DNA of 39,777 nt from IMG/VR virus record IMGVR_UViG_3300009610_000026, positions 1 through 39,777 of that record, one strand, 5' to 3'. A model generated the notes under the pieces. That model was given only the letters and a program-made list of their open reading frames with translations, was not told where the DNA came from and made no database searches. The position numbers and the translations under genes were made by a program. Source of the stretch: a virus. Positions 1-39,777 of the stretch are shown piece after piece (the first letter of the stretch is position 1; each line of letters opens with the position of its first letter).

Positions 1-123
1 AACTGGAGAAGTAGCAGAAAGTTATGGTGCAGGACCAAAGACTAAAACGGCTACTGAGATGGGAATGTTATTCCTGACTGGAATGATGGGCCAGAAAACA
101 GCTGATCAGTACATTTCGGAGAA
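1..123. repeat. Terminal direct repeat, copy 1 (identical to 39655..39777); marks circular closure of the genome
   Basis: Base-by-base comparison of both window ends gives 123/123 identity. The repeat is internal to a coding frame. Confidence 0.95.
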
Positions 124-11565: not shown

Positions 11566-12447
11566 ATGGAGAAAAAAATGACTGTTGCATTAGCTAACCA
11601 AAAAAACGAAATAATCATGGACTCTTCTAAAGAGCAGCTAGACATGATCAAAGATATGTGGTTTAAAGGATATGGATCGGATGTTGATCTTGGTGTCTTC
11701 TGGCATGTATGCAAGCACAAGAAGCTAGATCCTTTCAGCCGCCAAATATATCCTGTTTTTAGAAATACAAAACAAAAAGATGGTAGTAAAATTCAGCAAA
11801 TGACCATCCAAACTGGAATTGACGGGTTTAGATTAATTGCGGATAGGACAGGGAGATATTGTGCTGGAAGAGAGCCTTCTTTCCAGTATGATAAAAATGG
11901 GCAGCTGGTGAGCGCTACAAGCTATATCAAAAAACAGACACAAGATGGTACATGGCACGAAGTGTCTGGAGTCGCTTTTTATGCGGAATATGCCCAAAAA
12001 AACTATGATGGAACGCCCACAAAATTTTGGCAGCAAATGCCGCACGTAATGCTTGCAAAGTGTGCTGAAACTATAGCACTTCGCAAGGGTTTCCCAGAAG
12101 ATTTATCAGGAATTTATACAAATGAAGAAATGGCACAGGCGGACACAGTCGAAGTAAATCCCATTTCTCCTCAAGTAAATGTAAAGCGGGTTGACATAGG
12201 AATGGCTCAAGTTATTTCATCTGAACAGATAGCCGAACTAGAAGCCCTAATCTCACAAATACCTGAAGAAGCGAAAGAAAAATTCAATGAATGGATAAAA
12301 CAAAGAGGATTTAATAGCTTATCAGAAATATCCTTGCACTTTTTCGATGAAGTTAAGCCTAAATTGCGCATAAAAATAGCCCAAGTTAAACAGGCGTCTG
12401 CTATATCGAGGGAAAAAGAGGAGGATAAAAATGATGGACAAGAATAA
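11566..12447 (+). CDS. recT: RecT/Bet-family single-strand annealing recombinase
   Basis: VFWHVCKHKKLDPFSRQIYPV...QTGIDGFRLIADRTGRY...MLAKCAETIALRKGFPEDLSGIYTNEEM is the canonical RecT core. Confidence 0.85.
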   Translation: MEKKMTVALANQKNEIIMDSSKEQLDMIKDMWFKGYGSDVDLGVFWHVCKHKKLDPFSRQIYPVFRNTKQKDGSKIQQMTIQTGIDGFRLIADRTGRYCAGREPSFQYDKNGQLVSATSYIKKQTQDGTWHEVSGVAFYAEYAQKNYDGTPTKFWQQMPHVMLAKCAETIALRKGFPEDLSGIYTNEEMAQADTVEVNPISPQVNVKRVDIGMAQVISSEQIAELEALISQIPEEAKEKFNEWIKQRGFNSLSEISLHFFDEVKPKLRIKIAQVKQASAISREKEEDKNDGQE

Positions 12448-12610
12448 CGAGCTACTTCAGGAAATACATGAGGATTTTGGGGAATGGATAGAAATGGATT
12501 CGAGTGGGGAGGTTTTAACGAACATTCTATGTTCATTATTGATTAAAGAAAGAGACAAGGCTAATCAATATAAAATGGCACTTAAACGCTGTGAGCTTAC
12601 ACATAGATGA
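12431..12610 (+). CDS. 59-aa hypothetical protein
   Basis: ATG ORF below the cutoff that overlaps the RecT stop. It fills the otherwise empty gap between the recombinase and the exonuclease. Confidence 0.4.
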   Translation: MMDKNNELLQEIHEDFGEWIEMDSSGEVLTNILCSLLIKERDKANQYKMALKRCELTHR

Positions 12611-12780
12611 ATGAAAATAGAAGAAGTATAACTCATTGTAAACTGGAAATTGATCTTCTGACTCGAAAAGCAAAAGCTCTCGAGTCAGAAATTCAAACTT
12701 TAAGAACACAAAATAAAACCTACAAAGAACTTATAGACGCAATAATGAATGAAAAAAGTAAATTCAAGGACATGAAATGA
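12607..12780 (+). CDS. 57-aa coiled-coil protein
   Basis: ATGA overlaps on both sides (12607 and 12777). Contains the heptad-like LTRKAKALESEIQTLRTQNKTYKELI. Confidence 0.4.
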   Translation: MNENRRSITHCKLEIDLLTRKAKALESEIQTLRTQNKTYKELIDAIMNEKSKFKDMK

Positions 12781-13628
12781 AAATCATTGAAATGGTCCAG
12801 AATACTCCAGAATGGTCGCTTTACCGAAAAAATCATATAGGCGCAAGTGATGCTTCTGCGATTTTAGGTTGTGGGTTTATGACGGCCAATCAGCTCTACT
12901 TAAACAAATTAGGCCTTTACGAGCCCGTGCAGACAAAATTGATGTCTAGAGGGCATGAGCTAGAGGGTGCTGCACGATGGCTTGCTATGGATGTGCTAGG
13001 TTTCGCATTAAAGCCGCTGTGTGTTGAACATGATAAACGTTCATGGCAAGCCGCCAGCCTCGATGGGATTGACGATAAGCATTCTGTGATAGTAGAGATC
13101 AAGACAGGTGGAGCTGCTGCCCTGGAACGGGCAAAAAAGGGCATTATTCCTGACTACCATCATTGTCAGATTCAGCACCAATTAGAAGTCACTGGGCTAG
13201 ATAAATGTATCTATTTCTTTTTTGATGGAGAAAATGGATATCCTATTGAAGTTTATCGCGACACCAAATATATTACTTATCTAAACGAGGCCGAAGAACG
13301 ATTTTGGACGAATCTTCAAGACTTTGTTCCTCCACCTTTATGCGGTAAGGACTACGAGACCCATGAATCTGAAATGAGACTGAAGCTTGCTCAGGAATGG
13401 CTCGAAGTCAATGGAAACTTATCAGTTCTGGAGAAGCGCGAGAAAGAACTTAAAGAAGCCTTAATAGCTGATGCAGGAGAAAGGAATACCATAGGTGGGG
13501 GCATAAAGATATTGATGTCTGGAAGGGCTGGGAGCGTGGATTACAAGATAATCCCTGAATTGAAGAAGGTAAACCTGGAAGAATATAGGAAGCCAGCCGT
13601 GAAATTCTTTAGAATAACAAAAGGATAA
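12777..13628 (+). CDS. YqaJ/lambda-exonuclease-like PD-(D/E)xK recombination exonuclease
   Basis: Has the EWSLYRKNHIGASDASAILG N-terminal YqaJ signature and the catalytic-type SLDGI...VIVEIKT motif. Adjacent to RecT. Confidence 0.8.
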   Translation: MKIIEMVQNTPEWSLYRKNHIGASDASAILGCGFMTANQLYLNKLGLYEPVQTKLMSRGHELEGAARWLAMDVLGFALKPLCVEHDKRSWQAASLDGIDDKHSVIVEIKTGGAAALERAKKGIIPDYHHCQIQHQLEVTGLDKCIYFFFDGENGYPIEVYRDTKYITYLNEAEERFWTNLQDFVPPPLCGKDYETHESEMRLKLAQEWLEVNGNLSVLEKREKELKEALIADAGERNTIGGGIKILMSGRAGSVDYKIIPELKKVNLEEYRKPAVKFFRITKG

Positions 13629-15121: not shown

Positions 15122-15439
15122 ATGGCTATAGCAAGCATTGCTACATTTATGATGGCGAACATTTCCGACATCGATGATCCAGATGATGAACCAGCATGGA
15201 ATTCGTCTTTTTTTGACGGCAGTATAGAATTACATTTGATAGAAAAAAAAGAGCTAAGCAATGTCTACGACATTTACTTGTTCGTTACATCATCTAAAGC
15301 AATTTATATGGCTTGGTTAGCTAGCAAAGATGAAGAAGGGAATCCTGTTGGCTGGCAGTTTGTTGAATATGACTTGGCAAAAAAAATATTTCCAAATTTA
15401 AAATCACATAAATTTGAATATATGGGGCCTACTTCTTAG
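15122..15439 (+). CDS. Hypothetical acidic protein
   Basis: 105-aa ORF with AGAGGGAAAC before the ATG and an acidic stretch DIDDPDDEP. Confidence 0.5.
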   Translation: MAIASIATFMMANISDIDDPDDEPAWNSSFFDGSIELHLIEKKELSNVYDIYLFVTSSKAIYMAWLASKDEEGNPVGWQFVEYDLAKKIFPNLKSHKFEYMGPTS

Positions 15440-15605
15440 GGATTTTTGCCCCAGCTTTTCTTGCTTCGGAAAGAGCAATAGCTATTCCTTGCTTGTGATT
15501 CGTTACTAAAGGACCTTTTTTTGATCCTGAGTGAAGAGTTCCTTCTTTCAGTTCATGAAGGACCTTTTTAATTTTATTTTCGCCTTTAGATACAGATTTT
15601 TTCAT
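15429..15605 (-). CDS. DUF6496-like small basic protein
   Basis: VLHELKEGTLHSGSKKGPLVTNHKQGIAIALSEARKAG matches, from memory, the conserved HE(F/L)K.G.L.SG...V....QAIAIALSEAR family. Confidence 0.5.
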   Translation of the reverse strand: MKKSVSKGENKIKKVLHELKEGTLHSGSKKGPLVTNHKQGIAIALSEARKAGAKIPKK

Positions 15606-15607
15606 TT

Positions 15608-15742
15608 TTACCACACATAGTTTATGCTACCAGTAGGAAGCTTTGGTTCAGGTTTTTCTAAAATTGGACTTTCAGAAGTTTCAATAACGATCGGAAGAAG
15701 TACTGGCAACTGATAAGGGGTTTGAGGAGGAAGAGGATTCAT
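15608..15742 (-). CDS. 44-aa Pro-rich peptide (hypothetical)
   Basis: The ATG overlaps the stop of the paralogue gene (TAATG). Sequence MNPLPPQTPYQLPVLLPIVIETSESPILEKPEPKLPTGSINYVW. Confidence 0.3.
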   Translation of the reverse strand: MNPLPPQTPYQLPVLLPIVIETSESPILEKPEPKLPTGSINYVW

Positions 15743-16236
15743 TATAATTCTTTTGTTTCCATTATAGTCAACCAGGCTCTCGAAACACCACCCATGAGTC
15801 TTCCTGCAGCTGCATCTCCATTAACCGCATAGTGTCTATTTGCTCCGTTTGTTTCAGCTTGACCAATCCTAATCTTGAATGTTGTGGAACTTGTCGTTCC
15901 AGATGTCATGACATGTTTAACATAATAAAGACCGCCTGAACTTGAACCATATCTTAAATTCTGTGCAGCAAGTGCATTAGATGTTGTGTCTTGAAATAAA
16001 GCACAGCCAGCTGAATTTGAAGCACTACCAAAAGTACCACAACAAAAAAATTCTATAGTTAAAATAGATGTTGCCGACTTAGGCGTTATAGCTAATGTTA
16101 TTACTTCTGTACCTAATGTATTTGTAGGGATTGCATCTCCATCAGCCATTTGATTATTGCAGGTGATTACACTTGCTGTAGAATTGCTAACAAATTGTAA
16201 AACAGGATTTAATGAGTCAACACTATTTTGAGTCAT
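15742..16236 (-). CDS. Fibre-operon paralogue 1 (164 aa), putative receptor-binding/tip protein
   Basis: Shares conserved blocks with the two upstream genes (ALFQDTTSNALAA, MTSGTTSSTTFKIR, GGVS..LTI.E). ATGA coupling. Confidence 0.6.
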   Translation of the reverse strand: MTQNSVDSLNPVLQFVSNSTASVITCNNQMADGDAIPTNTLGTEVITLAITPKSATSILTIEFFCCGTFGSASNSAGCALFQDTTSNALAAQNLRYGSSSGGLYYVKHVMTSGTTSSTTFKIRIGQAETNGANRHYAVNGDAAAGRLMGGVSRAWLTIMETKEL

Positions 16237-16715
16237 AAATACTCCGTAATCGTTAACGAAGCCTTAGAAACACCACCCATGAGTCTTGTTCCAGAAGTGT
16301 TAGCATTGATATATGAAGTTCCCGAAACTATACCACCTCTAATCCTGAATGTTGTGGAACTTGTCGTTCCAGATGTCATGACATATTTTAAATATTGATA
16401 TCTTCCTGCGCTAGTTGTTCCAGAAATAGATGAGGATGCAGCAAGTGCATTAGATGTTGCATCTTGAAATAAAGCAACTATTAAAGAATTAGCTCCTGCT
16501 GTAGTATCTTTAATCATAGGAGCGATAAAAACAATTTCTAAAATAGAAGTAGAAGTTTTAGGAGTTATTGTAGCTGTTATTATTTCAGTTCCTTCGCCAA
16601 TCTGAGGAATACTATCATCAGATGGAATATTTCCAGTACACGCAATAACGCTGGCTGTTGTAGAAACAACTTTCTGGATTATAGGTTGTGTTGTATTTAT
16701 GGTATTCTGGGTCAT
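16233..16715 (-). CDS. Fibre-operon paralogue 2 (160 aa)
   Basis: Contains SIPQIGEGTEIITATITPK, ALFQDATSNALAA, MTSGTTSSTTFRIRGG. ATGA overlaps on both sides. Confidence 0.6.
   Translation of the reverse strand: MTQNTINTTQPIIQKVVSTTASVIACTGNIPSDDSIPQIGEGTEIITATITPKTSTSILEIVFIAPMIKDTTAGANSLIVALFQDATSNALAASSSISGTTSAGRYQYLKYVMTSGTTSSTTFRIRGGIVSGTSYINANTSGTRLMGGVSKASLTITEYL
16333..16379. repeat. 47-nt block identical to 16815..16861 (39 nt also identical at 15877..15915)
   Basis: ccacctctaatcctgaatgttgtggaacttgtcgttccagatgtcat is present in paralogues 2 and 3. Paralogue 1 differs by one base at the edge. Confidence 0.9.
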
Positions 16716-17194
16716 ATATATTCTATAATTGTGAACGAAGTTGCTGAAACACCACCAAATGATCTATTGGTCGAAGCTGTTACACTGTTTCCATATAGTG
16801 GATCAACTGTTGATCCACCTCTAATCCTGAATGTTGTGGAACTTGTCGTTCCAGATGTCATTGTATGTATAAGGGTAGCCGAAGGACCAAGTGTTGAAGT
16901 AACAAGGTTATCAGATATCGCGCACAATGCATTAGATGTTGCGTCTTGAAAAAGAGCAAGAGTCATAGGCGTTGAACCACCAGAAGTAGGATGTATATTT
17001 CCTGTATAAACTATTTCTAAAGTTGATACTGAATATTTAGGTGTAATCGCTAGTGTAATTATTTCAGTTCCTTCACCAATCTGAGGAATACTATCATCGT
17101 ATGGTATTGTTCCAGAACATGTTATTAATGCACCTGTCGATGTGGTAACATATTGAATAATATTCGATGCTGCATTTATTCGATTTTGAACCAT
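16712..17194 (-). CDS. Fibre-operon paralogue 3 (160 aa)
   Basis: Has the same blocks and a 47-nt identity with paralogue 2. AAGGA SD. Confidence 0.6.
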   Translation of the reverse strand: MVQNRINAASNIIQYVTTSTGALITCSGTIPYDDSIPQIGEGTEIITLAITPKYSVSTLEIVYTGNIHPTSGGSTPMTLALFQDATSNALCAISDNLVTSTLGPSATLIHTMTSGTTSSTTFRIRGGSTVDPLYGNSVTASTNRSFGGVSATSFTIIEYI

Positions 17195-17203
17195 AATTAT
17201 TCC

Positions 17204-17872
17204 TTATGCAACTGTCAAGTTTCCTTGAGAGACGCCCGTGCAGGTCCACACACTATTTGCCGTTGTTCCTATAATCTGAATTGTATCAAAAGCATTTGTT
17301 CCAGTTATTGTACCACCAGATGAAGTTACCTGATTACCAAATTGGATTGTGTCGCCTGTGCTGGCTGTTATTCTCCATAAACCTGCACCTTTACCAACGA
17401 TATGGATAATATCCCCTATAGCGAATGTTGCAGGTAGGTTAAATGTTAGGAGTGATCCTAGATTTGCGATATAACCATGATTTATAACAGCTGAAACTGG
17501 GCTAGCTGTTTCTTCCGTCCAAGCCATGCCACCCGATACATTGATAGTTACCGTATTTCCAGATCCTGAAGTCGTAACATTTGATCCACCTAAAATATTT
17601 AATATATTTGCAGATGGTATCGCATTTCCAGAATCAGTCGTAAAAGTAGTTGGAACGGAAGCACCTGCCGCAATAGTAATAGTGCCTGAACCATTGGTAA
17701 TGGTAACGCCTGATCCAGCAGTTAAAGTAGATTTAACGACATGAGGTAATGCTGATGATCCTATCCAAAGTTGACCATCAACAAGAAGTCTTCCAGCTCT
17801 TTCTGTTCCATCAAAACTAGCATTGTCAGCATGCACAACGGTTTCTTGACCGGTAATGAAACTAAATCCCAT
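17204..17872 (-). CDS. Tail fibre/spike-associated protein
   Basis: 222 aa, Gly/Thr/Ser-rich and beta-strand-like. It has the motif VPTTFTTDSGNAIPSANILNILGG, shared with the upstream gene. Confidence 0.5.
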   Translation of the reverse strand: MGFSFITGQETVVHADNASFDGTERAGRLLVDGQLWIGSSALPHVVKSTLTAGSGVTITNGSGTITIAAGASVPTTFTTDSGNAIPSANILNILGGSNVTTSGSGNTVTINVSGGMAWTEETASPVSAVINHGYIANLGSLLTFNLPATFAIGDIIHIVGKGAGLWRITASTGDTIQFGNQVTSSGGTITGTNAFDTIQIIGTTANSVWTCTGVSQGNLTVA

Positions 17873-18414
17873 TATGTTACCATCCTAAATTCTAATAGTG
17901 AATTCCAGTTTATAGAAAGAGCTGGATCTCCTTGAACTTGTAAGAGAGCATTGTTACCACTTACATTAAGAAAAATATCGGATAATGCTAAGGCTGCTTC
18001 TTCGAACTCATCATGATATGCAGCAGAAATTAATGTTGCAGATGCTCCATCTGTTCTTACAGCTCCAGCGAAGGCATAGCTTCCACCAGCTGGTGTTGAT
18101 GAATTAAATGCTTGGACATTACCGTAAACCATATATGTTGCTGGTGTGGCACCCAAAGGAAGAGTAATAATAGTAGTCAAGGCATCAGCTGGTGTTGTAA
18201 CTGTTCCTGTGGCTCTATTAGTCAAAACTACATTCAGAGTGTTTCCTGAACCAGTTGTTCTTATTCCATTATCGATATCTATAGTATCATCTATACCCAG
18301 AACATTTAAAATATTTGCCGCTGGAGTTGCTGTTCCTGAGTCTGTAACGAAATCTGTTGGTACATCTGGTGGAGATGGACCACCACTCGTACTAATAATA
18401 CCTGCTTGGCTCAC
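17872..18414 (-). CDS. Tail fibre/spike-associated protein
   Basis: 180 aa with a GTG start. It has the motif VPTDFVTDSGTATPAANILNVLG. TAATG junction with the downstream gene. Confidence 0.5.
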   Translation of the reverse strand: MSQAGIISTSGGPSPPDVPTDFVTDSGTATPAANILNVLGIDDTIDIDNGIRTTGSGNTLNVVLTNRATGTVTTPADALTTIITLPLGATPATYMVYGNVQAFNSSTPAGGSYAFAGAVRTDGASATLISAAYHDEFEEAALALSDIFLNVSGNNALLQVQGDPALSINWNSLLEFRMVT

Positions 18415-19007: not shown

Positions 19008-21335
19008 TTAGGTCTGACGTATGATCACATAATCGAATACTGAAACGTCAGTTGCAACCGCAGCTCCTAGCGCACTGTATGAGGCTATAGTAAACGAAGC
19101 ACCTGCACTTATTGTCGTTATTGGAAATCCAAGAGCAGGGGACCCATTTAGCGAAGATCTCGTTACGAAGATTCTGTCTCCAGCTGCAATGTTTGTGTTA
19201 TTTACCGTTACGCTACCTGCAATAAGAGTTGCACGACCGATAAAGTCTGTTACGGCACCCCCGTTCATGCTGATTTTTGTTGCAACAGAAGTTAGGTTAA
19301 AGTCAGTAGCACAGTTTACAGCTCCAGATCCAGCAGTAATGTTAACTGCTGTAGCACCTGTTGTGTTACCTATTGTTATAGTCTTTGCAGCTGCGTCAGC
19401 ACCGATATTGATCGCTCCAGTTCCTGTGACAAGTCCGAATGATCCATTGGTGGTAGTCCAAGCACATGCTCCAGTACCACTGTTCACATTAACTGCTGTA
19501 GCACCTGTTGTGTTACCTATTGTAACCGTGTGGGCTATCGCATTCGTTCCGATATTAAGTGCACCAGTACCACAGTCAACTACGACGCTAGTAGCACCTG
19601 TACCATTACCTATTGTTATAGTCTTTGCTGCGGCATCTGTTCCTAAAGCGATTGCTCCTGTTCCGGTTATAAGACTAAATGTACCGTTAGTAGTCGTCCA
19701 AGCACATGCTCCAGTACCACTGTTTACGTTTACAGCGGTTGCCCCAGTCACGTTACCAATGGTCACTGTGTGCGCAATTGCGTTAGTTCCTACATTCAAG
19801 GCTCCAGTTCCGCAATTCAAAACAAGGCTTGTTGCGCCTGTGCTATTACCCATCGTAATAGTATGGGCGGCTGCATCGGTACCGATATTGATCGCACCTG
19901 TGCCCGTTACCAACGCAAGAGTAGCGTTAGTCGTAGTAATGGTTGATCCACCAGAACCAGTATTGATATTGACAGCAGTAGCACCTGTGATGTTACCAAT
20001 CGTAATGGTTTTAGCAGCTGCGTCAGCACCAAGGCTTATTGCGCCGGTTCCTGTAACTAAACCGAAAGTCCCGTTAGTAGTCGTCCAAGCGCAGGCTCCA
20101 GTACCACTGTTTACGTTTACAGCGGTTGCCCCAGTCACGTTACCAATTGTGATAGTGTGAGCCGCAGCATCCGTACCCAGGTTAATGGCACCCGTTCCAG
20201 TTGCAAGTGCAAATGCACCGTTGGTTGTCGTCCATGTCGAACCACCCGTACCTGTATTAACATTCACTGCTGTTGCACCTGTGATATTGCCGATAGTGAC
20301 AGTATGAGCTATCGCATTCGTACCAATATTTATAGGTCCAGTTCCAGAATCCAGAACTAGAGAAGTAGCACCTGTACTATTACCTAAAGTAATCGTATGA
20401 GCTATTGCATTTGTACCAATGTTTAAAGCACCTGTTCCACAGTTTAGAACGACGCTAGTAGCTCCTGATGAGTTACCGACAGTTATCGTTCTAGCAGCTG
20501 CCCCAGTACCTATGTTGATTGCTTGAGCTACGGCATCATTACCGATTCCAATTACGCCAGCTGAAGAATTAAGTTCAAGGACGCCTGCTGAGTCAATCAA
20601 AACTGTATCAGCTGAATTCAAGACGATGTCGCCAGCTCCAGTGCTTGTGACTGTAAAGCTTCCTGTACCTGTATTCACCGCAACCGCAGTAGCACCAGTG
20701 ACGTTACCTACAGTAATTGTACGAGCACCAGCACCTGTACCAATATTAACAGCACCTGTAGATGCATCTGAAGCAAGGTTAAGGGCTGTGGCACCCGTTG
20801 TAATTGTAGCGCTAGCCGTAGCCGTAAGAAGTCCACTAGCTCCAAGTGTTGTAAACGCACCGGCAGCTGGAGTTGTTCCACCAATCGCTGGAGGTGTTGT
20901 CAGAAGAGTTGTTAGCTTAAGCGGTGTAACGATTCTAGCATCGTCTGTACCTGTATTCGTTTCGGCTTGTGTTGCGATCTCGGCTATACCGGAGATGAGT
21001 TCTGTAGCAGCAGGAATGGCCCCGACAACAACACCTGCGATAACGGTTGCTACATCATTAGAAGTAGGAACGGCGCCAGCAGGAGCTGTACCCGCTTGCA
21101 ATTCCGCTAAAGTTGCCAACTCTACGATACCGGGAGTTGTCGTAGTAGCTAAACCGTTACCTCCGACTACCCATGTAGTACCATTAAATGTATAACCCGT
21201 AGCAGGAGTGGTAGATTTATCAAAATATAGTTGACCAAGTTCTCCTATTAGATTGGATGCAGGTGCTCCAAATCCTGATAAAGGACCTGATGTAACTGAT
21301 ACTAGACCGCCGATTCCGTAAACTGTTTTTGGCAT
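19008..21335 (-). CDS. Tail fibre with internal periodic beta-helix-like repeats
   Basis: The N-terminal motifs GIVELATLAELQAGT and GIAEIATQAETNTGTDDARIVTPLKL are the AT.AE...G.....VTP..L fibre motif. There are eleven copies of the core IGxxAxAxTITIGNxTGATxVxxN. Confidence 0.75.
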   Translation of the reverse strand: MPKTVYGIGGLVSVTSGPLSGFGAPASNLIGELGQLYFDKSTTPATGYTFNGTTWVVGGNGLATTTTPGIVELATLAELQAGTAPAGAVPTSNDVATVIAGVVVGAIPAATELISGIAEIATQAETNTGTDDARIVTPLKLTTLLTTPPAIGGTTPAAGAFTTLGASGLLTATASATITTGATALNLASDASTGAVNIGTGAGARTITVGNVTGATAVAVNTGTGSFTVTSTGAGDIVLNSADTVLIDSAGVLELNSSAGVIGIGNDAVAQAINIGTGAAARTITVGNSSGATSVVLNCGTGALNIGTNAIAHTITLGNSTGATSLVLDSGTGPINIGTNAIAHTVTIGNITGATAVNVNTGTGGSTWTTTNGAFALATGTGAINLGTDAAAHTITIGNVTGATAVNVNSGTGACAWTTTNGTFGLVTGTGAISLGADAAAKTITIGNITGATAVNINTGSGGSTITTTNATLALVTGTGAINIGTDAAAHTITMGNSTGATSLVLNCGTGALNVGTNAIAHTVTIGNVTGATAVNVNSGTGACAWTTTNGTFSLITGTGAIALGTDAAAKTITIGNGTGATSVVVDCGTGALNIGTNAIAHTVTIGNTTGATAVNVNSGTGACAWTTTNGSFGLVTGTGAINIGADAAAKTITIGNTTGATAVNITAGSGAVNCATDFNLTSVATKISMNGGAVTDFIGRATLIAGSVTVNNTNIAAGDRIFVTRSSLNGSPALGFPITTISAGASFTIASYSALGAAVATDVSVFDYVIIRQT
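19332..20744 (-). repeat. Coding tandem repeats inside the fibre gene (24-aa core, spacing alternating 31 and 49 aa; last two 80-aa super-repeats nearly identical)
   Basis: The cores start at residues 198, 275, 306, 337, 386, 435, 484, 515, 564, 595 and 644. A block of at least 50 nt near 19721..19770 is repeated near 20108..20157. Confidence 0.85.
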
Positions 21336-28623: not shown

Positions 28624-29772
28624 ATGAGCGAATATAATAAAATGGCAAAAGGAAAATTCATTTCAACTGGCGAAGCACAGATTATTAATCTGCCTTTCCA
28701 GCCTGATTATATTGAAATGATCAACTACACAGCTACTTTTACAGCACCTACAACACAAAAAGTTGTATCTGCAAAATGGGATAGCAATATGGGCCAAGGA
28801 TTTGCCGTAGAACAAGTTTACGACGCAACTCCTGACTTAGTAGTTGATGCAGTTATTGCTAGTGGTTTTAGCACATTTGCAGCAGGACAAATGCTTCAAT
28901 TTGGGCCAACTCTGGCTATTAGTGGTATCACTAAGGCAAGTGCTGGCGTGGTAACAACTACAACTAACCACAATTTAAAGAGTGGCGATGTAGTTATGTT
29001 TCAAGGTCTTTATCAGTCTTCAACCACTGGTATGCCTCAAATCGCAGGTATTCCTTTCACAGTGACTGTAACAGGTGCTACAACCTTTTCAATCCCTTGG
29101 AATACTAACCAGTCTAATTATACTGCTCTTTCAGGTTCTCCTTCAGGCGCTACAGTTAAAAAGGTTTTATACCCTTACATATACTTCCCTGGAGTAACTG
29201 TAATCAGTGCAATTACACTTGGTACGACCACAACAATTGACACAACGAGTGCTCATAACTTTGTCGTTGGACAAGAAGTGGCATTCCGTATCCCTGCCGG
29301 CTCAGGCTATAACTGGGGTACAACTGAATTGAATTCATTACCAAATACACTCGTTCCTGGTTCACCAGTTTATGGGTATGTCATCGCGGTCACGGATTAC
29401 AATACAGTTATTGTAAACATTGATTCGAGTGCCTTTACAGCCTTTAACAGCAACCCAACTGTTGCAAGCGTCCCTGGCCTAAATTGGGCACAGATTCTTG
29501 CTGTTGGTGATGTTAATACAGGTGGCGTGGCGATCTACAGTGGCTCTCCATTGTATCCTTCTCCACAGTTTGGACCTATAGGCACAACGCTTGTAAGTAC
29601 AATCAATGGCCCTGCTATCAAAGGTGCTTTTGTGAATAACACAAGCCAAGGCTTTATCATCGGTAATGGATCAGGGGTTAACCAGACTTCATCTGTTTTA
29701 GTTGGTACTGCTGAAGATGTCATTTACTGGAGAGCTATTCTCCATGATTTGAATCAACCTGCTATTCCTTAA
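28624..29772 (+). CDS. Capsid decoration / head-fibre-like protein with two copies of the recurrent ~70-aa module
   Basis: Starts 1 nt after the capsid stop and lies upstream of the terminator at 29783. Modules are at about 28915..29163 and 29191..29472. Confidence 0.45.
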   Translation: MSEYNKMAKGKFISTGEAQIINLPFQPDYIEMINYTATFTAPTTQKVVSAKWDSNMGQGFAVEQVYDATPDLVVDAVIASGFSTFAAGQMLQFGPTLAISGITKASAGVVTTTTNHNLKSGDVVMFQGLYQSSTTGMPQIAGIPFTVTVTGATTFSIPWNTNQSNYTALSGSPSGATVKKVLYPYIYFPGVTVISAITLGTTTTIDTTSAHNFVVGQEVAFRIPAGSGYNWGTTELNSLPNTLVPGSPVYGYVIAVTDYNTVIVNIDSSAFTAFNSNPTVASVPGLNWAQILAVGDVNTGGVAIYSGSPLYPSPQFGPIGTTLVSTINGPAIKGAFVNNTSQGFIIGNGSGVNQTSSVLVGTAEDVIYWRAILHDLNQPAIP

Positions 29773-29782
29773 TTGAATAATT

Positions 29783-29812
29783 GGCCGGGACTAAATATCC
29801 CGGCCTTTTTTT
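29783..29812 (+). terminator. Rho-independent terminator after the capsid/decoration genes
   Basis: GGCCGGGA-ctaaata-TCCCGGCC followed by TTTTTTT. Confidence 0.75.
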
Positions 29813-29820
29813 GGAGAAAT

Positions 29821-30477
29821 ATGGCTTCAACTGGAACAGTTTTAAGTTACCCAATACCTGCCTATCAGAATTTACCGATTCATGCTGATTTTTATCAGCC
29901 TAGTCGCTTTGTTATAACGGATATCACAAGAGGAAATACGACTACGATTACGACTAGCGTAGCTCACAATTATGTAATTGGTCAAAATATTCGTCTTATC
30001 ATTCCCGTAGATTATGGATCTTTTCAGCTTAACGAAACTCAAGGCTATGTCATTAGCATTCCTTCAACCACGCAAGTAATTGTTATGATCGATTCTACAA
30101 ATGTAGATGCGTTTATAACTAACCCTTATGTTTCTACAATAACAAATTCTACTCAAGCTGATCCTGTAGTACTAACGACAAATAACGTATTCCTGACAGG
30201 AGCATATATACGAATAACAGATGTAGGAGGCATGACTGAATTAAACGAAAACACTTATCAAATTCTCGCTGCCAATCCCATCTCTCTTACAATAAATGCA
30301 GATGGCGCTGTATTTAGTGCTTATACAGGTGGTGGGACTGCCACTTTAACCAACCATCAAAATACACAACCTCAAATATTAGCTATTGGCGATTGCAATG
30401 GCGGACAAATTAATAGTTCTGGTAGAAGTCAAAATATTACCTATGTAGAGGGTAGTTTTATAAATGTTTCGCCATAA
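29821..30477 (+). CDS. Virion protein made of two copies of the recurrent module
   Basis: I prefer the ATG at 29821 (GGAGAAAT upstream) over the TTG at 29773, which would place the terminator hairpin inside the gene. Confidence 0.55.
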   Translation: MASTGTVLSYPIPAYQNLPIHADFYQPSRFVITDITRGNTTTITTSVAHNYVIGQNIRLIIPVDYGSFQLNETQGYVISIPSTTQVIVMIDSTNVDAFITNPYVSTITNSTQADPVVLTTNNVFLTGAYIRITDVGGMTELNENTYQILAANPISLTINADGAVFSAYTGGGTATLTNHQNTQPQILAIGDCNGGQINSSGRSQNITYVEGSFINVSP

Positions 30478-31758: not shown

Positions 31759-33147
31759 GTGATCACCTACGTCCGTAGGATAATTAAAAGTCCTTCAAAT
31801 TCTGTAATAACTGATGATTTGATCATAGATTATATCAATCGTTTTTGGATCATGGATGTTGATGCTCGCATGCAACTGTTTGATTTGAAAACGAAATATA
31901 GCTTTCAAACGTCCCCTGCTGTTGATCGATACAACATGCCCTTATATGATGTTCAAACACAACAAGGTGGTCAGAATATCAATTTCTATCCTGTTTATCA
32001 AGGATTCACATCGCCAGCTTATGTAAATGGAGTTCAAGTCCCTTTACAGACTTTAAAAGGTTCTTTTTTTAATCTTTGGCCAAACATTGTACAAAATATA
32101 GTGGTTGGAACAGGAGATGGAGGTACTACTTATACCCTGCAAGTTCCAATCATAGGTAATACTTCGCCTCCTAATCCTCCTTTACAAGGACTTTTAAGAG
32201 GTCACGTTGATATATCAGGCATAGTTGCTACAGGAGCTAACCAAGATCCACCGTCGGGAAATACATTGAATACTCTGATCCCTTCAACAAGCATTGACGC
32301 TGCAGTTTATATAACCACATTAGACGAGAATGGAAATAACGTTGTAGTTTCAGATTCAGGTCAATTCTTAGATAACGGCATTAGTTTCCCAAACTATGGT
32401 CTCCTGATGACACCAGGAACCGCTCCATTTGGATATTCAACCTTACCTGGTGGATACAGCACTGTAGCAGTGATCACAAACGTAACTCAAGCAAATCCTG
32501 CTGTTGTTACTGCTGCAAACGGCTTTCAGATTGGCCAGACAGTCCATATAGACGGTGTAAATGGTATGACTGAATTAAACGGGAATTCTTATATCATCAC
32601 AGCATCTTCTCCCACTTCATTCACAATTAACGTAGACTCATCAGCTTTTACACCCTATACCTCATCAGGAAGTGCCTCGAGTCTAAATAATGTGATTAAC
32701 TATTTGACAGGTGAAATACAGGTAACCTTCCCTGTTGCTATACCATCAGGTCAAAATATCAGTGTTCAGTGCTACTACTTCCAAACAGGATTACCTAGAG
32801 GTATGTTGTATTATAACAACACATTAACTCTTCGTAGCCCACCTGACAAACAATATTTGGTTGAAATAGATGCTTATCTTTCTCCTGCTGCATTCTTGAA
32901 TACTGCAGCGGCAGTTCCTTTTGGATATATGTCCGAATATATAGCTCGTGGTGCTGCTAGAAAGATACTTTCAGATACTGGAGATATCGAACAATTCCAG
33001 TTCTATGAACCTTTATTCAGAGAACAGGAGCTGCTAGTTTGGAAACGCAGTCAAAGGCAATGGACTAACAATAGAACAGAAACAATCTATTCCCAAGGTT
33101 TTGGGCATGGTGTAAATGGTACAGGTTTCACCGGAGGAACTCTATGA
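31759..33147 (+). CDS. Head-to-tail adaptor / tail tubular A-like protein carrying one inserted recurrent module
   Basis: 462 aa, positioned before the nozzle-like gene. The module lies at about 32464..32679. GTG start. Confidence 0.4.
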   Translation: MITYVRRIIKSPSNSVITDDLIIDYINRFWIMDVDARMQLFDLKTKYSFQTSPAVDRYNMPLYDVQTQQGGQNINFYPVYQGFTSPAYVNGVQVPLQTLKGSFFNLWPNIVQNIVVGTGDGGTTYTLQVPIIGNTSPPNPPLQGLLRGHVDISGIVATGANQDPPSGNTLNTLIPSTSIDAAVYITTLDENGNNVVVSDSGQFLDNGISFPNYGLLMTPGTAPFGYSTLPGGYSTVAVITNVTQANPAVVTAANGFQIGQTVHIDGVNGMTELNGNSYIITASSPTSFTINVDSSAFTPYTSSGSASSLNNVINYLTGEIQVTFPVAIPSGQNISVQCYYFQTGLPRGMLYYNNTLTLRSPPDKQYLVEIDAYLSPAAFLNTAAAVPFGYMSEYIARGAARKILSDTGDIEQFQFYEPLFREQELLVWKRSQRQWTNNRTETIYSQGFGHGVNGTGFTGGTL

Positions 33148-33773
33148 CTTTCACTTTCAATAATGCTATTCCTGCTAGTGGGAACAATCCCTCTGTGGAT
33201 CAGCCTGGAATGCTTAGCAATAACATAAGTACCGCAAATATCATTAATGTTGATCATGTAGGTTTCAATCAATCTTCAGGTGGTAAACATAAAGTAATAC
33301 GGGCTCGCTCTTTGCAAACACTAGGTATAGCATTGCCACCCGGTGTTTCAGGCGAAGGAAGCATCTATACAAGAACAGCAAGTGCAGTAACAAATCTCTT
33401 TTACCGTCCTGATGCGACAGCGAACGAATATCAGTTAACAAGAACAATAGCCGCTTCTTTTGCTACATTTGGTACAGATACCAATTATAATGGGAATAAT
33501 ATAGGTGGATGGACTTTTCTTCCAGGAGGCCTTCTTTTTCAATATGGATTTATAACACCAGTTGTTAATCAAGGAAATACAGCTATAGTTTATCCTGTTG
33601 CATTTTCTTCTGGCCCAGCATTTAGTCTTACTGTAAGCGCAGTAGTAACCTCATCATTGGGAGATCTAACATCTGCCATTAGAACAGGAACAAGCGGTAG
33701 TACTGGTTTCAGTATATCTACAAGCTCTTCTGGAAATGTTACTTCATTTTATTGGATGGCAATAGGTGTTTAA
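33144..33773 (+). CDS. Tail fibre/collar-like protein with gp53-like C-terminal beta-sandwich (tentative)
   Basis: VDHVGFNQSSGGKHKVI and WTFLPGGLLFQYGFITP...IVYPVAFSSGPAFSLTVS resemble the conserved ends of short fibre proteins (LPxGlxxQWG...vxFPxxF). Confidence 0.45.
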   Translation: MTFTFNNAIPASGNNPSVDQPGMLSNNISTANIINVDHVGFNQSSGGKHKVIRARSLQTLGIALPPGVSGEGSIYTRTASAVTNLFYRPDATANEYQLTRTIAASFATFGTDTNYNGNNIGGWTFLPGGLLFQYGFITPVVNQGNTAIVYPVAFSSGPAFSLTVSAVVTSSLGDLTSAIRTGTSGSTGFSISTSSSGNVTSFYWMAIGV

Positions 33774-39143: not shown

Positions 39144-39777
39144 CACTCGATCTTAGCAAGTACATGATACAAGATTCGCTTCAAAGAGATCAGCCAACGC
39201 AACAACAAGCGCCCCTTAAACCTTTAGAGTTAGACAAATATTTGTCGCCTACAGAATCTACCGCTTTTGATACTTTTAAACGCCATGCAGCACGTACTGG
39301 ATCTAGAATAGGTGAAACGGTCGTTGGATTTCCAGGTGACTTTGTTAAGTTCGTCCAATTTATGGCTGATAAACTTCCACATGTGCCCACTGGCAAGCCT
39401 AATGAACTACAAGAGCTAGGAAGAAAGGGTTTGGAGAAACTCCCTACCAGCGAGGATGTAAAGCAATTTTCTGAGCAATACACAAAAGGATACACAAAAG
39501 CCCAAGGACCTGGAGAAGAATTTAGCGATGAAATAGCTTCTTTAGCTGGAGCACTAGCTATCCCTGCTCGTGATCCAAGAAAGTTTGTATCTTTTCTTGG
39601 TGCATTAGGTAAAAACCTACCAAAGGCAGCAGTAAAAGCTGCCGCTGTCAAAGGAACTGGAGAAGTAGCAGAAAGTTATGGTGCAGGACCAAAGACTAAA
39701 ACGGCTACTGAGATGGGAATGTTATTCCTGACTGGAATGATGGGCCAGAAAACAGCTGATCAGTACATTTCGGAGAA
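39140..39777 (+). CDS. 5' portion of the junction-spanning gene (continues at base 1, stop at 811)
   Basis: The ATG at 39140 is in an ATGA overlap with the previous stop. There is no stop before the window end. The frame is not in the supplied track because it is unterminated. Confidence 0.6.
   Translation, partial: MTLDLSKYMIQDSLQRDQPTQQQAPLKPLELDKYLSPTESTAFDTFKRHAARTGSRIGETVVGFPGDFVKFVQFMADKLPHVPTGKPNELQELGRKGLEKLPTSEDVKQFSEQYTKGYTKAQGPGEEFSDEIASLAGALAIPARDPRKFVSFLGALGKNLPKAAVKAAAVKGTGEVAESYGAGPKTKTATEMGMLFLTGMMGQKTADQYISE
39655..39777. repeat. Terminal direct repeat, copy 2
   Basis: Identical to 1..123. Confidence 0.95.

What the first reader, a model, noticed from the sequence alone, without database searches (positions are those of the whole stretch)
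15742..17194. Three translationally coupled, equal-length paralogues with a conserved scaffold, three hypervariable segments and identical nucleotide blocks
The last three genes of the fibre operon are joined by ATGA overlaps, which suggests equimolar synthesis. They encode 160, 160 and 164 aa. Alignment by eye gives five conserved blocks:
- the MxQN N-terminus;
- SIPQIGEGTEIITxAITPK;
- ALFQDATSNAL;
- MTSGTTSSTTFRIRGG;
- GGVSxxxLTIxE.
These blocks are separated by three 15-25 aa segments with almost no identity.

At the DNA level the fourth block is a 47-nt perfect identity between copies 2 and 3 (16333..16379 = 16815..16861). Thirty-nine of those nucleotides are also identical in copy 1 (15877..15915). 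The flanks have diverged heavily, which points to gene conversion or recombination among the copies.

Two readings are possible. One is a cassette of alternative receptor-binding tips. The other, given the equal size and coupling, is a heterotrimeric jelly-roll (C1q/TNF-like) tip built from three different chains. That would be unusual, because phage fibres are normally homotrimers.
Basis: partly seen in the sequence, partly recalled or inferred. Interest (0 to 1): 0.7.

Follow-up and report, generated by a model that had tools for sequence, protein, structure and literature searches.

The report
Three coupled Pgp3-like phage fibre heads
An uncultured short-tailed phage encodes three back-to-back, co-translated copies of a small TNF-like receptor-binding "head" that is related to the Chlamydia virulence protein Pgp3; it matters because Pgp3 was reported to have no definite relatives, and because the three copies may form one mixed trimer rather than three separate ones.

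Summary
Three minus-strand genes (17194-16712, 16715-16233, 16236-15742; 160/160/164 aa) are joined by ATGA overlaps. They share five conserved blocks, three hypervariable segments and a 47-nt exact repeat.

They are stand-alone TNF-like jelly-roll domains homologous to the Pgp3 C-terminal domain (Pfam PF05475; AF2 pLDDT 91; Foldseek TM 0.73-0.78). The family is large: 12,003 cluster representatives. In most sampled loci the domain is the single C-terminal tip of a fibre protein. No cultured phage in the collection carries it.

The window is a complete ~39.65-kb genome with a P22-like portal. Twelve related genomes keep the overlapping triplet behind a fibre protein with a conserved C-terminal domain. 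Two have doublets. No locus has more than three genes.

Synonymous codons in the conserved blocks match within genomes but differ between genomes (p<=2e-4). Elsewhere they do not. This indicates short-patch gene conversion.

Best reading (~0.5): three different homotrimeric receptor-binding heads mounted on one fibre. A 1:1:1 heterotrimer (~0.33) is not excluded.

The parts
16712..17194 (-). Head gene A (160 aa): stand-alone TNF-like / Pgp3-CTD-family domain, first of the triplet
   Evidence: ORF. Alignment. Family HMM score of 280 bits. No direct Pfam hit, but 56% identical to B.
16233..16715 (-). Head gene B (160 aa): stand-alone TNF-like / Pgp3-CTD-family domain
   Evidence: Pfam PF05475, E=1.3e-7, 31.9 bits against a cutoff of 25. 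AF2 pLDDT 91.2. Foldseek top hits are Pgp3 entries 4jdn/4jdo/6gjt, E~1e-9, TM 0.73-0.78 normalised by query.
15742..16236 (-). Head gene C (164 aa): 'type 3' paralogue with the signature GGVS.A[W/Y]L
   Evidence: Pfam PF05475, E=3.8e-4, 20.7 bits, below the cutoff. Position-3 signature shared with 8-9 of 10 other genomes.
16712..16715 (-). ATGA stop/start overlap between A and B (translational coupling)
   Evidence: All 24 junctions of the 12 related triplets overlap: 20 by 4 nt and 4 by 1 nt.
16233..16236 (-). ATGA stop/start overlap between B and C
16333..16379 (-). 47-nt block in B identical to 16815-16861 in A (encodes MTSGTTSSTTFRIRGG); gene-conversion tract
   Evidence: Codon table across genomes. 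Permutation test.
16815..16861 (-). 47-nt block in A, identical to the block in B
15876..15914 (-). 39-nt block in C identical to 16346-16384 in B; 15876-15909 is shared by all three copies
16476..16556 (-). Segment V1 of B, residues 54-80 (the conserved TS.L.I stretch plus the hypervariable CD region). Equivalents: A 16958-17035, C 16003-16077
   Evidence: Entropy profile. Coordinates. Mean identity 0.28-0.31 in every class of comparison.
16380..16442 (-). Hypervariable segment V2 of B, residues 92-112 (EF region). Equivalents: A 16862-16924, C 15910-15969
16278..16331 (-). Hypervariable segment V3 of B, residues 129-146 (GH region). Equivalents: A 16757-16813, C 15793-15861
17204..17872 (-). 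Upstream fibre protein (222 aa). Its C-terminal ~128 aa (nt 17207-17590) form the conserved 'upC' domain, the proposed docking platform for the heads
   Evidence: Weak tail-fibre PHROG hits. upC is conserved in all triplet and doublet loci. TNF-like and upC domains are fused in one chain in L005. upC lies directly upstream of most multi-copy stand-alone sets but of few single-copy genes. Marginal match to the CBA120 TSP4 XD1 domain, E=0.009.
17872..18414 (-). 180-aa small fibre-like protein; shares the motif TDSG.A.P.ANILN.LG with the 222-aa protein
   Evidence: Translations. No family or PDB hit.
19008..21335 (-). 775-aa fibre protein with gp34-like repeats; first gene of the fibre operon
   Evidence: PDB 9x3r long-tail-fibre proximal subunit, E=5.9e-9. 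Five internal tandem repeats.
11566..13628 (+). RecT (11566-12447) and YqaJ exonuclease (12777-13628): phage recombination module, a candidate driver of the short-patch conversion
   Evidence: Pfam PF03837 E=1.4e-24 and PF09588 E=1.5e-15. Relatives carry RecT or ERF, most of them with YqaJ.

Best explanation
The three genes encode three diverged copies of one small module: a stand-alone TNF-like jelly-roll 'head' of about 155 aa. The head belongs to the same sequence family as the C-terminal domain of the Chlamydia plasmid protein Pgp3. In most other sampled loci from uncultured phages it is the extreme C-terminal tip of a tail-fibre protein.

In this lineage of phages with a P22-like portal, the head is a separate gene present in three copies. 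The three copies sit directly behind a fibre protein and are translated with it from one message through overlapping or tightly spaced stop/start codons. The fibre protein's conserved C-terminal domain is the likely platform that carries the heads.

My preferred reading is that each paralogue trimerises with itself, as Pgp3 does and as single-copy relatives must. A fibre or virion would then display three different receptor-binding heads. The three hypervariable segments (CD, EF and GH loops) lie on the face opposite the N- and C-termini and would make up the receptor-binding surface. The conserved blocks lie on the proximal face and core.

Short-patch gene conversion keeps those conserved blocks uniform among the copies. 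The phage RecT/YqaJ system plausibly mediates it. The loops between the blocks are left free to diverge. This resembles the conserved-motif / hypervariable-segment design of T-even gp38 adhesins.

Shown: the genes, the overlaps, the fold and family, the tip position in relatives, the conserved triplet and gene order, and the block-restricted concerted evolution.

Inferred: virion incorporation, docking on the upstream domain, the distal position of the loops, the homotrimeric state, and the role of RecT.
For: Fold and family:
- PF05475 hit above the gathering score for B.
- A family profile finds only Pgp3 among PDB sequences, E=3.7e-5.
- AF2 pLDDT 91.2. Foldseek top 18 hits are all Pgp3, followed by the trimeric TNF-like lectins BC2L-C-Nt and PLTL.

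Tip role:
- In 260 of 296 non-redundant loci the domain is in one gene only. It usually ends 1-4 residues before the C-terminus of a 170-1239-aa protein.

Fibre context:
- A gp34-like 775-aa fibre protein lies upstream.
- The next gene upstream has weak tail-fibre PHROG hits.
- P22-like portal, large terminase and capsid genes are present.

Conserved arrangement:
- 12 related triplets, all with overlapping junctions.
- For 23 of 32 genes the best between-genome match is at the same position, against about one third expected.

Homotrimer preference:
- Single-copy relatives and Pgp3 are homotrimers.
- Doublets without a third-copy remnant occur inside the clade, in L070 and L154.
- Two-gene sets of full-length mini-fibres exist (L089, L142, L212).
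- Single chains with 2 or 4 tandem domains exist (P0126-P0130, P0133; P0121), so 'three' is not obligatory.
- L002 has three upC-bearing small fibre proteins before its three heads.

Docking:
- upC is conserved in all triplet and doublet loci.
- The TNF-like and upC domains are fused in one chain in L005.
- An upC-ending gene lies directly upstream of most multi-copy stand-alone sets but of only a handful of the roughly 210 single-copy genes.

Gene conversion:
- Codon table.
- Identical-codon fraction in block 4 is 0.65 within genomes against 0.43 expected (p<=2e-4). Blocks 2 and 3 are also significant. The rest is 0.42 against 0.42, p=0.6.
- RecT and YqaJ are present.
- No DGR-type template repeat was found.
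Against: - No oligomer prediction or experiment exists. The only attempt, a concatenated A+B+C single-sequence AF2 run, gave pLDDT 36.5 and is uninformative.
- The number of genes is three in 12 of 14 genomes of the stand-alone clade and never exceeds three in 296 non-redundant loci.
- Two other lineages independently carry exactly three genes: L114/L183/L188 and L110/L178.
- A 478-aa single chain made of exactly three domains exists in two samples.
- Positional signal sits in the N- and C-terminal strands. Those strands lie in the inner sheet that forms the subunit interface in TNF-like trimers.
- Homogenising the scaffold by conversion is not what one expects if mixed trimers had to be avoided.
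- All of these points fit a defined heterotrimer at least as well.
- Virion incorporation is not demonstrated. No cultured relative exists.
- The loop placement is derived from strand parity, not from coordinates.
Confidence: 0.5

Rival explanations
1. The three chains assemble 1:1:1 into one asymmetric TNF/C1q-like heterotrimeric head. Translational coupling supplies equimolar chains. Gene conversion keeps the shared interface and proximal face compatible. The nine distal loops, three from each chain, form one composite asymmetric receptor-binding surface.
For: - Three genes in 12 of 14 genomes of the clade, and never more than three in 296 non-redundant loci.
- Independent three-gene sets in L114/L183/L188, whose copies are monophyletic, and in L110/L178.
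- A natural 478-aa chain of exactly three domains joined by short linkers of about 8-10 residues between domain matches, found in two samples directly behind a fibre gene.
- All junctions overlap and the lengths are equal.
- Conserved gene order with position-specific N- and C-terminal segments, and the type-3 signature GGVS.A[W/Y]L.
- Scaffold homogenisation by conversion.
- Precedent: three consecutive tail proteins of virophage DSLV2 co-purify as a heterotrimer, in a different fold (PMC12724248).
- From general knowledge: C1q A/B/C and lymphotoxin alpha1beta2 show that this fold tolerates heterotrimers.
Against: - L070 and L154 have only two genes, with no remnant of a third and no type-3 copy.
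- Two-gene sets and two-domain chains are at least as frequent across independent lineages. A four-domain chain also exists.
- Clade support in bootstrapped NJ trees is poor: type-3 monophyly in 1-6% of replicates. Several genomes show within-genome sister copies: window A/B, L073 2/3, L156 1/2.
- Every solved relative is a homotrimer.
- No structural test could be run.
Confidence: 0.33
2. The three proteins are not stable virion parts. They could be assembly chaperones or caps for the upstream fibre, in the way Tfa or Pam3 gp25 are encoded downstream of fibre genes. Or they could be released Pgp3-like proteins that act on the host surface, for example in superinfection exclusion or as receptor decoys.
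For: - Small genes immediately downstream of a fibre gene are often chaperones. Pam3 gp25 forms a 3:3 cap on the fibre tip (PMC9608196).
- Pgp3 itself is a secreted protein (PMC6370636).
- There is no direct evidence here of virion incorporation.
Against: - The same domain is covalently the C-terminal tip of fibre proteins in most other sampled loci.
- It has hypervariable loops, as expected of a receptor-binding surface.
- No match to chaperone families in Pfam or PHROGs.
- Nothing in the translated N-termini (MxQN...) looks like a signal peptide; no signal-peptide predictor was run.
Confidence: 0.07
3. The similarity pattern is only purifying selection on a conserved motif plus codon bias. 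There is no recombination among the copies, and the triplet is a recent, neutral duplication.
For: The motif MTSGTTSSTTF is almost invariant at protein level across the whole family.
Against: - Synonymous codons in the block differ between genomes but agree within genomes.
- The excess is restricted to the conserved blocks and absent elsewhere, which excludes genome-wide codon preference.
- The triplet is old: copies are only 42-56% identical, and gene order is shared by phages whose orthologues are about 50% identical.
Confidence: 0.03

Closest known systems
Pgp3 C-terminal domain (Chlamydia plasmid virulence factor; Pfam PF05475; PDB 4JDN, 4JDO, 6GJT)
   Same: Sequence-level homology: Pfam E=1.3e-7, and family profile against PDB E=3.7e-5. 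Same TNF-like jelly-roll fold (TM 0.73-0.78 normalised by query, 20-24% identity). In most phage relatives the domain also sits at the extreme C-terminus of an elongated protein, as in Pgp3.
   Different: Here the domain is a free-standing 160-aa protein with only about 11 extra N-terminal residues. It is present in three coupled copies in a phage structural operon. Pgp3 is a single 264-aa chain with an N-terminal domain and a coiled coil; it is secreted by a bacterium and is a homotrimer. The motifs most conserved in phages (IPQNTEG, ALFQD, MTSGTTSSTTF) are degenerate in Pgp3.
Receptor-binding head of lactococcal phage Tuc2009 (BppL), and the TNF-like lectins BC2L-C-Nt and PLTL
   Different: The similarity to these is structural only (about 10% identity, TM about 0.5-0.6). 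All are homotrimers from single genes. No triplication and no stand-alone heads.
T-even gp38 adhesins (conserved glycine-rich motifs separating hypervariable segments)
   Same: A small protein at the fibre tip. Hypervariable segments are separated by highly conserved motifs, and recombination tends to occur within or near those motifs (PMC3157838). Here the conserved blocks carry the within-genome nucleotide identity.
   Different: Unrelated fold and sequence. gp38 is described as monomeric and single-copy. Here the exchange partners include paralogues in the same genome.
Tripartite tail proteins of virophage DSLV2
   Same: Three consecutive, similarly sized paralogous fibre-tip genes, conserved across a lineage. 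A heterotrimer is proposed and the chains co-purify (PMC12724248).
   Different: Collar / gp37-tip fold (PF07484), not TNF-like. A virophage, not a tailed phage. The heterotrimer here is untested.
Branched tailspike complexes anchored on T4 gp10-like XD domains (CBA120 TSP4, G7C gp66)
   Same: One fibre or spike protein provides a beta-sandwich platform that carries further trimeric receptor-binding proteins (PMC8825819). The upstream protein's conserved C-terminal domain gives a marginal profile match to the TSP4 XD1 region, and the whole protein a weak PHROG hit to a 'baseplate wedge tail fiber protein connector' family.
   Different: The match is marginal (E=0.009) and is to XD1, which that paper regards as a spacer rather than a docking domain. 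The partners here are 160-aa heads, not large tailspikes.
Complement C1q globular head (A, B and C chains)
   Same: Jelly-roll fold of the TNF/C1q class. Three paralogous genes, tandem in the genome, give one heterotrimeric head (general knowledge).
   Different: No sequence relation and no collagen stalk here. Heterotrimer unproven. Foldseek did not rank C1q among the top hits.

Membership tests
Pfam PF05475 (Chlam_vir, Pgp3 C-terminal domain) | Sequence match at or above the curated gathering score (25 bits) | tested here: met
   B: 31.9 bits, E=1.3e-7. C: 20.7 bits, below the cutoff. A: no hit, but 56% identical to B. Many homologues carry a precomputed PF05475 hit.
Pfam PF05475 (Chlam_vir, Pgp3 C-terminal domain) | TNF-like jelly-roll fold superposable on Pgp3 CTD | tested here: met
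   AF2 pLDDT 91.2, pTM 0.85. Foldseek 4jdn/4jdo/6gjt E~1e-9, TM 0.73-0.78 normalised by query and up to 0.85 normalised by target.
Pfam PF05475 (Chlam_vir, Pgp3 C-terminal domain) | Homotrimeric assembly | not testable with these tools
   No multimer predictor was available. The concatenated single-sequence run failed, pLDDT 36.5.
Pfam PF05475 (Chlam_vir, Pgp3 C-terminal domain) | Domain at the C-terminus of a longer trimeric protein (N-terminal domain plus coiled coil) | tested here: not met
   The window proteins are stand-alone, with only about 11 residues before strand A. The feature is met in most relatives elsewhere.
Heterotrimeric TNF/C1q-type head (C1q A/B/C-like) | Three distinct paralogous chains encoded together | tested here: met
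   Conserved in 12 related genomes.
Heterotrimeric TNF/C1q-type head (C1q A/B/C-like) | Obligate 1:1:1 assembly of the three chains | not testable with these tools
   Indirect evidence is mixed. Against that, doublets and 2- or 4-domain chains exist.
Heterotrimeric TNF/C1q-type head (C1q A/B/C-like) | Collagen-like (Gly-X-Y) stalk preceding the head | tested here: not met
   No Gly-X-Y repeats in A, B, C or in the upstream 222-aa protein (translations).
Diversity-generating retroelement (DGR) target protein | A template repeat matching the variable region, and a reverse transcriptase nearby | tested here: not met
   A whole-window repeat search finds no second copy of any hypervariable segment and no inverted repeats. 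No RT appeared among the ORFs scanned, but not every ORF was scanned.
Tail-fibre assembly chaperones (Tfa, T4 gp38 type, Pam3 gp25) | Sequence or profile match to a chaperone family | tested here: not met
   No Pfam or PHROG chaperone hit for A, B or C. The position downstream of a fibre gene is shared.
gp10-like XD adaptor domain (CBA120 TSP4, T4 gp9/gp10), tested for the upstream protein's C-terminal domain | Significant profile match to an XD domain | tested here: inconclusive
   Profile A4 against PDB: 7rfv, 7rfo and 7rej TSP4-N residues 76-127, E=0.009-0.013. PHROG 677 'baseplate wedge tail fiber protein connector', E=0.002. No Pfam hit.
DSLV2-type tripartite tail fibre | Phage tail collar domain (PF07484) in all three proteins | tested here: not met
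   No Collar hit in A, B or C. The resemblance is in organisation only.
T-even gp38 adhesin | Glycine-rich motifs forming the core, and an N-terminal gp37-binding domain | tested here: not met
   The conserved blocks are Ser/Thr- and Asp/Gln-rich, not Gly-rich. No family hit. The resemblance is in design only.

The most novel reading that the evidence does not exclude
The three co-translated chains form one asymmetric 1:1:1 heterotrimeric TNF/C1q-like head on a phage fibre. Its nine hypervariable loops would build a single composite, antibody-like binding surface. Short-patch gene conversion among the paralogues would act as the mechanism that keeps the three subunit interfaces mutually compatible. 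The same family would also be the source of the Chlamydia virulence factor Pgp3.
Probability: 0.33. Interest if true: 0.8.

Novelty: new variant of a known kind. Interest (0 to 1): 0.6.

Why it matters
1. Pgp3 is a major Chlamydia antigen and virulence factor. Papers read here say it has 'no definite homologues' (PMC6038952), and no paper in the held library mentions PF05475 or 'Pgp3-like'. This locus belongs to a family with 12,003 cluster representatives. In the loci sampled, the domain is almost always the tip of a phage fibre protein. That suggests a phage-fibre origin for the Pgp3 C-terminal domain and a receptor-binding role for it.

2. The family is abundant in contigs from many different metagenome projects, yet absent from 50,697 deposited phage genomes. 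A common receptor-binding module of uncultured phages is therefore uncharacterised.

3. The conserved, overlapping three-gene set with block-restricted concerted evolution is a clean natural example of a stable scaffold kept uniform while binding loops diversify. That is useful for engineering receptor-binding proteins.

4. If the chains form a heterotrimer, this would be a rare asymmetric phage receptor-binding protein. It would also be a prokaryotic-virus parallel to C1q.

Tried and rejected
1. A concatenated A+B+C chain was submitted to AF2 as a substitute for a multimer run. It went in without an alignment and gave pLDDT 36.5 and pTM 0.31, which is uninformative.

2. DNA and protein searches of cultured phages, using the region, paralogue B and the portal, gave no match. 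No host or characterised relative was found.

3. DGR-type mutagenesis was rejected. There is no template repeat and there are no inverted repeats.

4. Nucleotide-level functional constraint on the 47-mer (an RNA element or site) was rejected. The block's synonymous sites differ between genomes.

5. Genome-wide codon bias as the cause of the within-genome codon identity was rejected by the 'rest of gene' control.

6. NJ phylogeny for positional orthology gave a type-3 grouping in 9 of 11 triplets, but bootstrap support for type-3 monophyly was only 1-6%. I relied on best-hit position counts instead: 23/32 overall and 26/32 on scaffold columns.

7. I looked for two-domain chains next to a one-domain gene (2+1=3). 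IMG/VR scans with P0122 and P0130 returned only single-domain relatives, and the context look-ups were exhausted.

8. Cluster look-ups for provenance returned no names or accessions.

9. The Pgp3 structure paper (Galaleldeen 2013) is not held, so it is cited only through secondary sources.

10. tRNA scan: no tRNA genes. Promoter and terminator scans were at or below shuffle expectation.
Full report
**1. The observation**

The window carries three consecutive minus-strand ORFs: A 17194..16712 (160 aa), B 16715..16233 (160 aa) and C 16236..15742 (164 aa). They are joined by two ATGA stop/start overlaps.

- A/B are 56% identical and A/C 42%.
Three high-entropy segments lie between them.
- The 47-nt identity 16333-16379 = 16815-16861 is exact.
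- The 39-nt run is also real, but it lies at 15876-15914 = 16346-16384, between C and B. Only 34 nt are common to all three copies.

**2. Genomic setting**

- The first and last 123 nt of the window are identical, so this is a complete, circularly assembled or terminally redundant genome of about 39.65 kb.
- It encodes a large terminase, a P22-like portal (PF16510, E=3.7e-59) and a major capsid protein.
- It also encodes a RecT/YqaJ recombination module.
- No tRNA gene was found.
- The minus-strand operon begins with a 775-aa protein carrying repeats like those of the T4-type proximal long-tail-fibre subunit (E=5.9e-9). Small proteins of 64, 110 and 180 aa follow.
- Next comes a 222-aa protein with weak tail-fibre PHROG hits, and then the triplet.
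- Neither the region, nor paralogue B, nor the portal matches any of 50,697 deposited phage genomes. The lineage is uncultured and its host is unknown.

**3. What the proteins are**

- Paralogue B matches Pfam PF05475, the Pgp3 C-terminal domain, above the curated cutoff (31.9 bits against 25). C matches below it.
- A profile of 109 family members finds Pgp3 as the only credible PDB relative (4jdn E=3.7e-5, 6gjt E=4.7e-4). The next hits are noise.
- An AF2 model of B built with that alignment is confident (pLDDT 91.2, pTM 0.85) and all-beta.
- The 18 best Foldseek PDB hits are all Pgp3 chains (E~1e-9; TM 0.73-0.78 normalised by query, up to 0.85 normalised by target).
- The trimeric TNF-like lectins BC2L-C-Nt and PLTL come next.
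- The receptor-binding head of lactococcal phage Tuc2009 was reported to have Pgp3 and BC2L-C as its closest structural neighbours (PMC4742702). This fold therefore has a precedent as a phage receptor-binding head.

**4. The family**

- A word-indexed search returned more than 2,057 homologues.
- An exhaustive profile search of 1.84 billion cluster representatives returned 12,003 at E<=1e-3 and 4,004 at E<=1e-30.
- I fetched 369 loci from IMG/VR, JGI/ENA metagenomes, Logan assemblies and one MAG. After removing duplicates, 296 remained.
- In 260 of the 296, the domain occurs in one gene only.
- In those genes it typically ends 1-4 residues before the C-terminus of a 170-1239-aa protein, which is the position of a fibre tip.
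- Papers on Pgp3 state that it has no definite homologues (PMC6038952). The held library has no paper mentioning PF05475 or 'Pgp3-like'.

**5. The triplet is a conserved lineage feature**

- Stand-alone heads of 152-166 aa occur as three consecutive genes in the window and in L001, L002, L004, L067, L068, L071/L072, L073, L153, L155, L156 and L157.
- All 24 junctions overlap, 20 by ATGA and 4 by one nucleotide.
- Two relatives, L070 and L154, have two genes and no remnant of a third.
- No locus has more than three genes with the domain.
- Two other lineages also have exactly three. In L114/L183/L188 (204/208/205 aa) each copy has a short fibre-like N-terminal extension, and the copies are monophyletic. 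In L110/L178 (169/168/165 aa) the copies are scattered across the family tree.
- Other multiplicities exist. Two-gene sets of longer mini-fibres occur (L089, L142, L212, and others). About six cluster representatives of ~320 aa have two tandem domains. One 1412-aa protein has four. One 478-aa protein consists of exactly three, and it was found in two samples directly after a Collar-domain fibre gene.

**6. Age and order of the copies**

- The NJ tree groups position-3 copies from 9 of 11 triplets, but bootstrap support is very low (type-3 monophyly in 1-6% of replicates).
- A simpler test is more robust. For 23 of 32 genes, the most similar gene in another genome sits at the same position, against about one third expected. 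On scaffold columns the count is 26 of 32.
- The positional signal is carried by the N-terminal and C-terminal segments (23/32 and 22/32).
- The hypervariable segments are saturated in every comparison (0.20-0.37 identity) and carry little positional signal (14-15/32 each).
- Position 3 has a recognisable signature, GGVS.A[W/Y]L.
- Some genomes show within-genome sister copies: window A/B, L073 2/3 and L156 1/2. This implies occasional replacement of a copy.

**7. Concerted evolution confined to the conserved blocks**

- In the MTSGTTSSTTF block the synonymous codon choices are nearly the same among the copies of one genome but differ between genomes.
- The analysis used 11 non-redundant genomes and compared the fraction of identical codons at identical residues within genomes with the mean obtained by permuting genome labels.
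- Block 4: 0.65 against 0.43, p<=2e-4.
- The IPQ..ITP block: 0.54 against 0.44, p<=2e-4.
- The ALFQD..NAL block: 0.58 against 0.48, p<=6e-4.
- All remaining columns: 0.42 against 0.42, p=0.6.

The control excludes genome-wide codon preference. The between-genome differences exclude a conserved nucleotide element. The pattern is short-patch gene conversion, or an equivalent recombination, among the paralogues. It is limited to stretches where enough homology remains.

The phage's own RecT/YqaJ system is a plausible agent. Relatives carry RecT or ERF, most of them with YqaJ. This step is inference. No DGR-type template repeat exists.

The design of conserved motifs flanking hypervariable segments, with recombination at or near the motifs, parallels the T-even gp38 adhesins (PMC3157838).

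**8. Where the blocks and loops sit (inference)**

- The model has the strand order A, A', B, C, D, E, F, G, H.
- I assume the N- and C-termini lie together at the proximal face, as they do in TNF-like domains attached to a stalk.
- Strand parity then puts the three hypervariable segments (CD, EF and GH connections) on the distal face.
- It puts ITPK, FQD..NAL and the SGTTSS turn on the proximal face.

**9. The likely partner**

- In every triplet or doublet genome the gene immediately upstream ends in a conserved ~128-aa domain, which I call upC (consensus ...GNLTVA). The N-terminal part of that protein varies from about 50 to 750 residues.
- In L005 one 1239-aa chain contains a head (residues 969-1120) followed directly by upC (1127-1239). 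This is a domain-fusion argument for physical association.
- An upC-ending gene lies directly upstream of most multi-copy stand-alone sets, but of only a handful of the roughly 210 single-copy genes counted.
- The upC profile gives a marginal match (E=0.009) to the XD1 domain of CBA120 TSP4. The 222-aa protein has a weak PHROG hit to a 'baseplate wedge tail fiber protein connector' family. This is a lead towards a branched-fibre adaptor, not a demonstration.
- L002 has three upC-bearing small proteins before its three heads.

**10. Homotrimers or a heterotrimer?**

For a defined 1:1:1 heterotrimer:
- the cap at three genes;
- independent three-gene sets in other lineages;
- the single chain with exactly three domains;
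- universal translational coupling;
- conserved gene order with position-specific terminal strands;
- scaffold homogenisation by conversion;
- the DSLV2 virophage precedent, where three consecutive tail proteins co-purify (PMC12724248).

For three separate homotrimeric heads:
- every solved relative and every single-copy relative is, or must be, a homotrimer;
- doublets occur inside the clade without pseudogenes;
- two-gene sets, two-domain chains and a four-domain chain show that multiplicity is not locked to three;
- L002's three upC proteins pair naturally with three heads.

No multimer prediction was possible. My one attempt, a concatenated chain without an alignment, failed.

Starting from a prior that phage receptor-binding proteins are nearly always homotrimers, I put three homotrimeric heads at about 0.5 and the heterotrimer at about 0.33. 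A non-virion role gets about 0.07. A chance or neutral explanation of the pattern gets about 0.03.

**11. Verdict**

The finding is real and more interesting than a routine paralogue cluster. The locus has four notable properties:
- It is a previously undescribed arrangement of an uncharacterised but very abundant phage fibre-tip family.
- That family gives Pgp3 its first clear relatives.
- The three-gene, translationally coupled set is conserved.
- It shows statistically supported, block-restricted gene conversion.

It belongs to a known kind (modular phage receptor-binding proteins with TNF-like heads, multi-RBP sets, motif/hypervariable mosaics), so I class it as a new variant of a known kind. 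The heterotrimer, the most novel reading, remains open and is directly testable.

Noticed in passing
window 1-123 and 39655-39777: Identical 123-nt direct repeat at the two ends of the window. The contig is a complete circularly assembled or terminally redundant genome of 39,654 bp. A second assembly of the same phage (L235, contig length 39,643) exists in another ENA sample.
   Followed up: partly
window 19324-20346 (inside the 775-aa gene 19008-21335, minus strand): Five diverged tandem repeats (periods 240 and 147 nt, 63-73% identity) in the first fibre gene. The region has locally raised G+C (0.47 against about 0.37-0.40 elsewhere). The protein matches repeats of T4-type proximal long-tail-fibre subunits (E=5.9e-9).
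   Followed up: partly
window 28624-29772, 29773-30477, 31759-33147, 33752-36718 (plus strand): Four consecutive or near-consecutive structural proteins each hit Pfam PF16190 (ubiquitin-activating enzyme E1 FCCH domain) above the gathering score (36.8-47.8 bits). This is an odd annotation for phage structural proteins, and suggests a shared small beta-barrel module. A 37-nt repeat, 30222-30258 and 32556-32592, lies within two of them.
   Followed up: no
window 11566-12447 and 12777-13628 (plus strand); relatives L002, L067, L070, L071, L153: The recombination module is RecT plus YqaJ here and in L156, with weaker RecT and PDDEXK hits in L001. It is ERF plus YqaJ in L067, L070, L071/L072 and L153. 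L002 shows an ERF hit without a YqaJ hit. This looks like non-orthologous replacement of the annealing protein within one phage group.
   Followed up: no
window 15429-15614 (minus strand): A 61-aa DUF6496 protein (PF20106, E=3.1e-14) lies just downstream of the triplet on the same strand. The same family follows the triplet in L001 and L235. Function unknown.
   Followed up: no
window 17872-18414 and 17204-17872 (minus strand): The 180-aa protein (GTG start; its stop overlaps the next start by one base) and the 222-aa protein share the motif F.TDSG.A.P.ANILN.LG but have different C-terminal domains. They may be two small fibres sharing a common attachment motif.
   Followed up: no
L002 1185-2886: Three consecutive small proteins (168, 200 and 177 aa), each ending in the upC domain, precede that genome's three head genes. 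The putative platform is also triplicated there.
   Followed up: partly
L369 6001-7437 and L370 4086-5522 (protein P0122); P0121; P0126-P0130, P0133: Single polypeptides carry 3 (478 aa), 4 (1412 aa) or 2 (~320 aa) tandem Pgp3-like domains. In P0122 the linkers span roughly 8-10 residues between successive domain matches. P0122 occurs in two samples directly after a Collar-domain fibre gene. The same phage also has a long (annotated 1131-aa) protein, with a faint beta-helix hit, that ends in the same domain.
   Followed up: partly
L067 10932-11753 and L153 6938-7783 (opposite strand, abutting the triplet): A family-25 glycosyltransferase (PF01755, an LPS/LOS-type enzyme) is encoded immediately after the triplet in two relatives. 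This is a possible hint that the receptor is a surface glycan, or that these phages modify the host surface.
   Followed up: no
L005 18-3737: A 1239-aa fibre protein in which the Pgp3-like domain (residues 969-1120) is not terminal but is followed by the upC domain (1127-1239). This is the reverse of the order implied by gene order in the window.
   Followed up: partly
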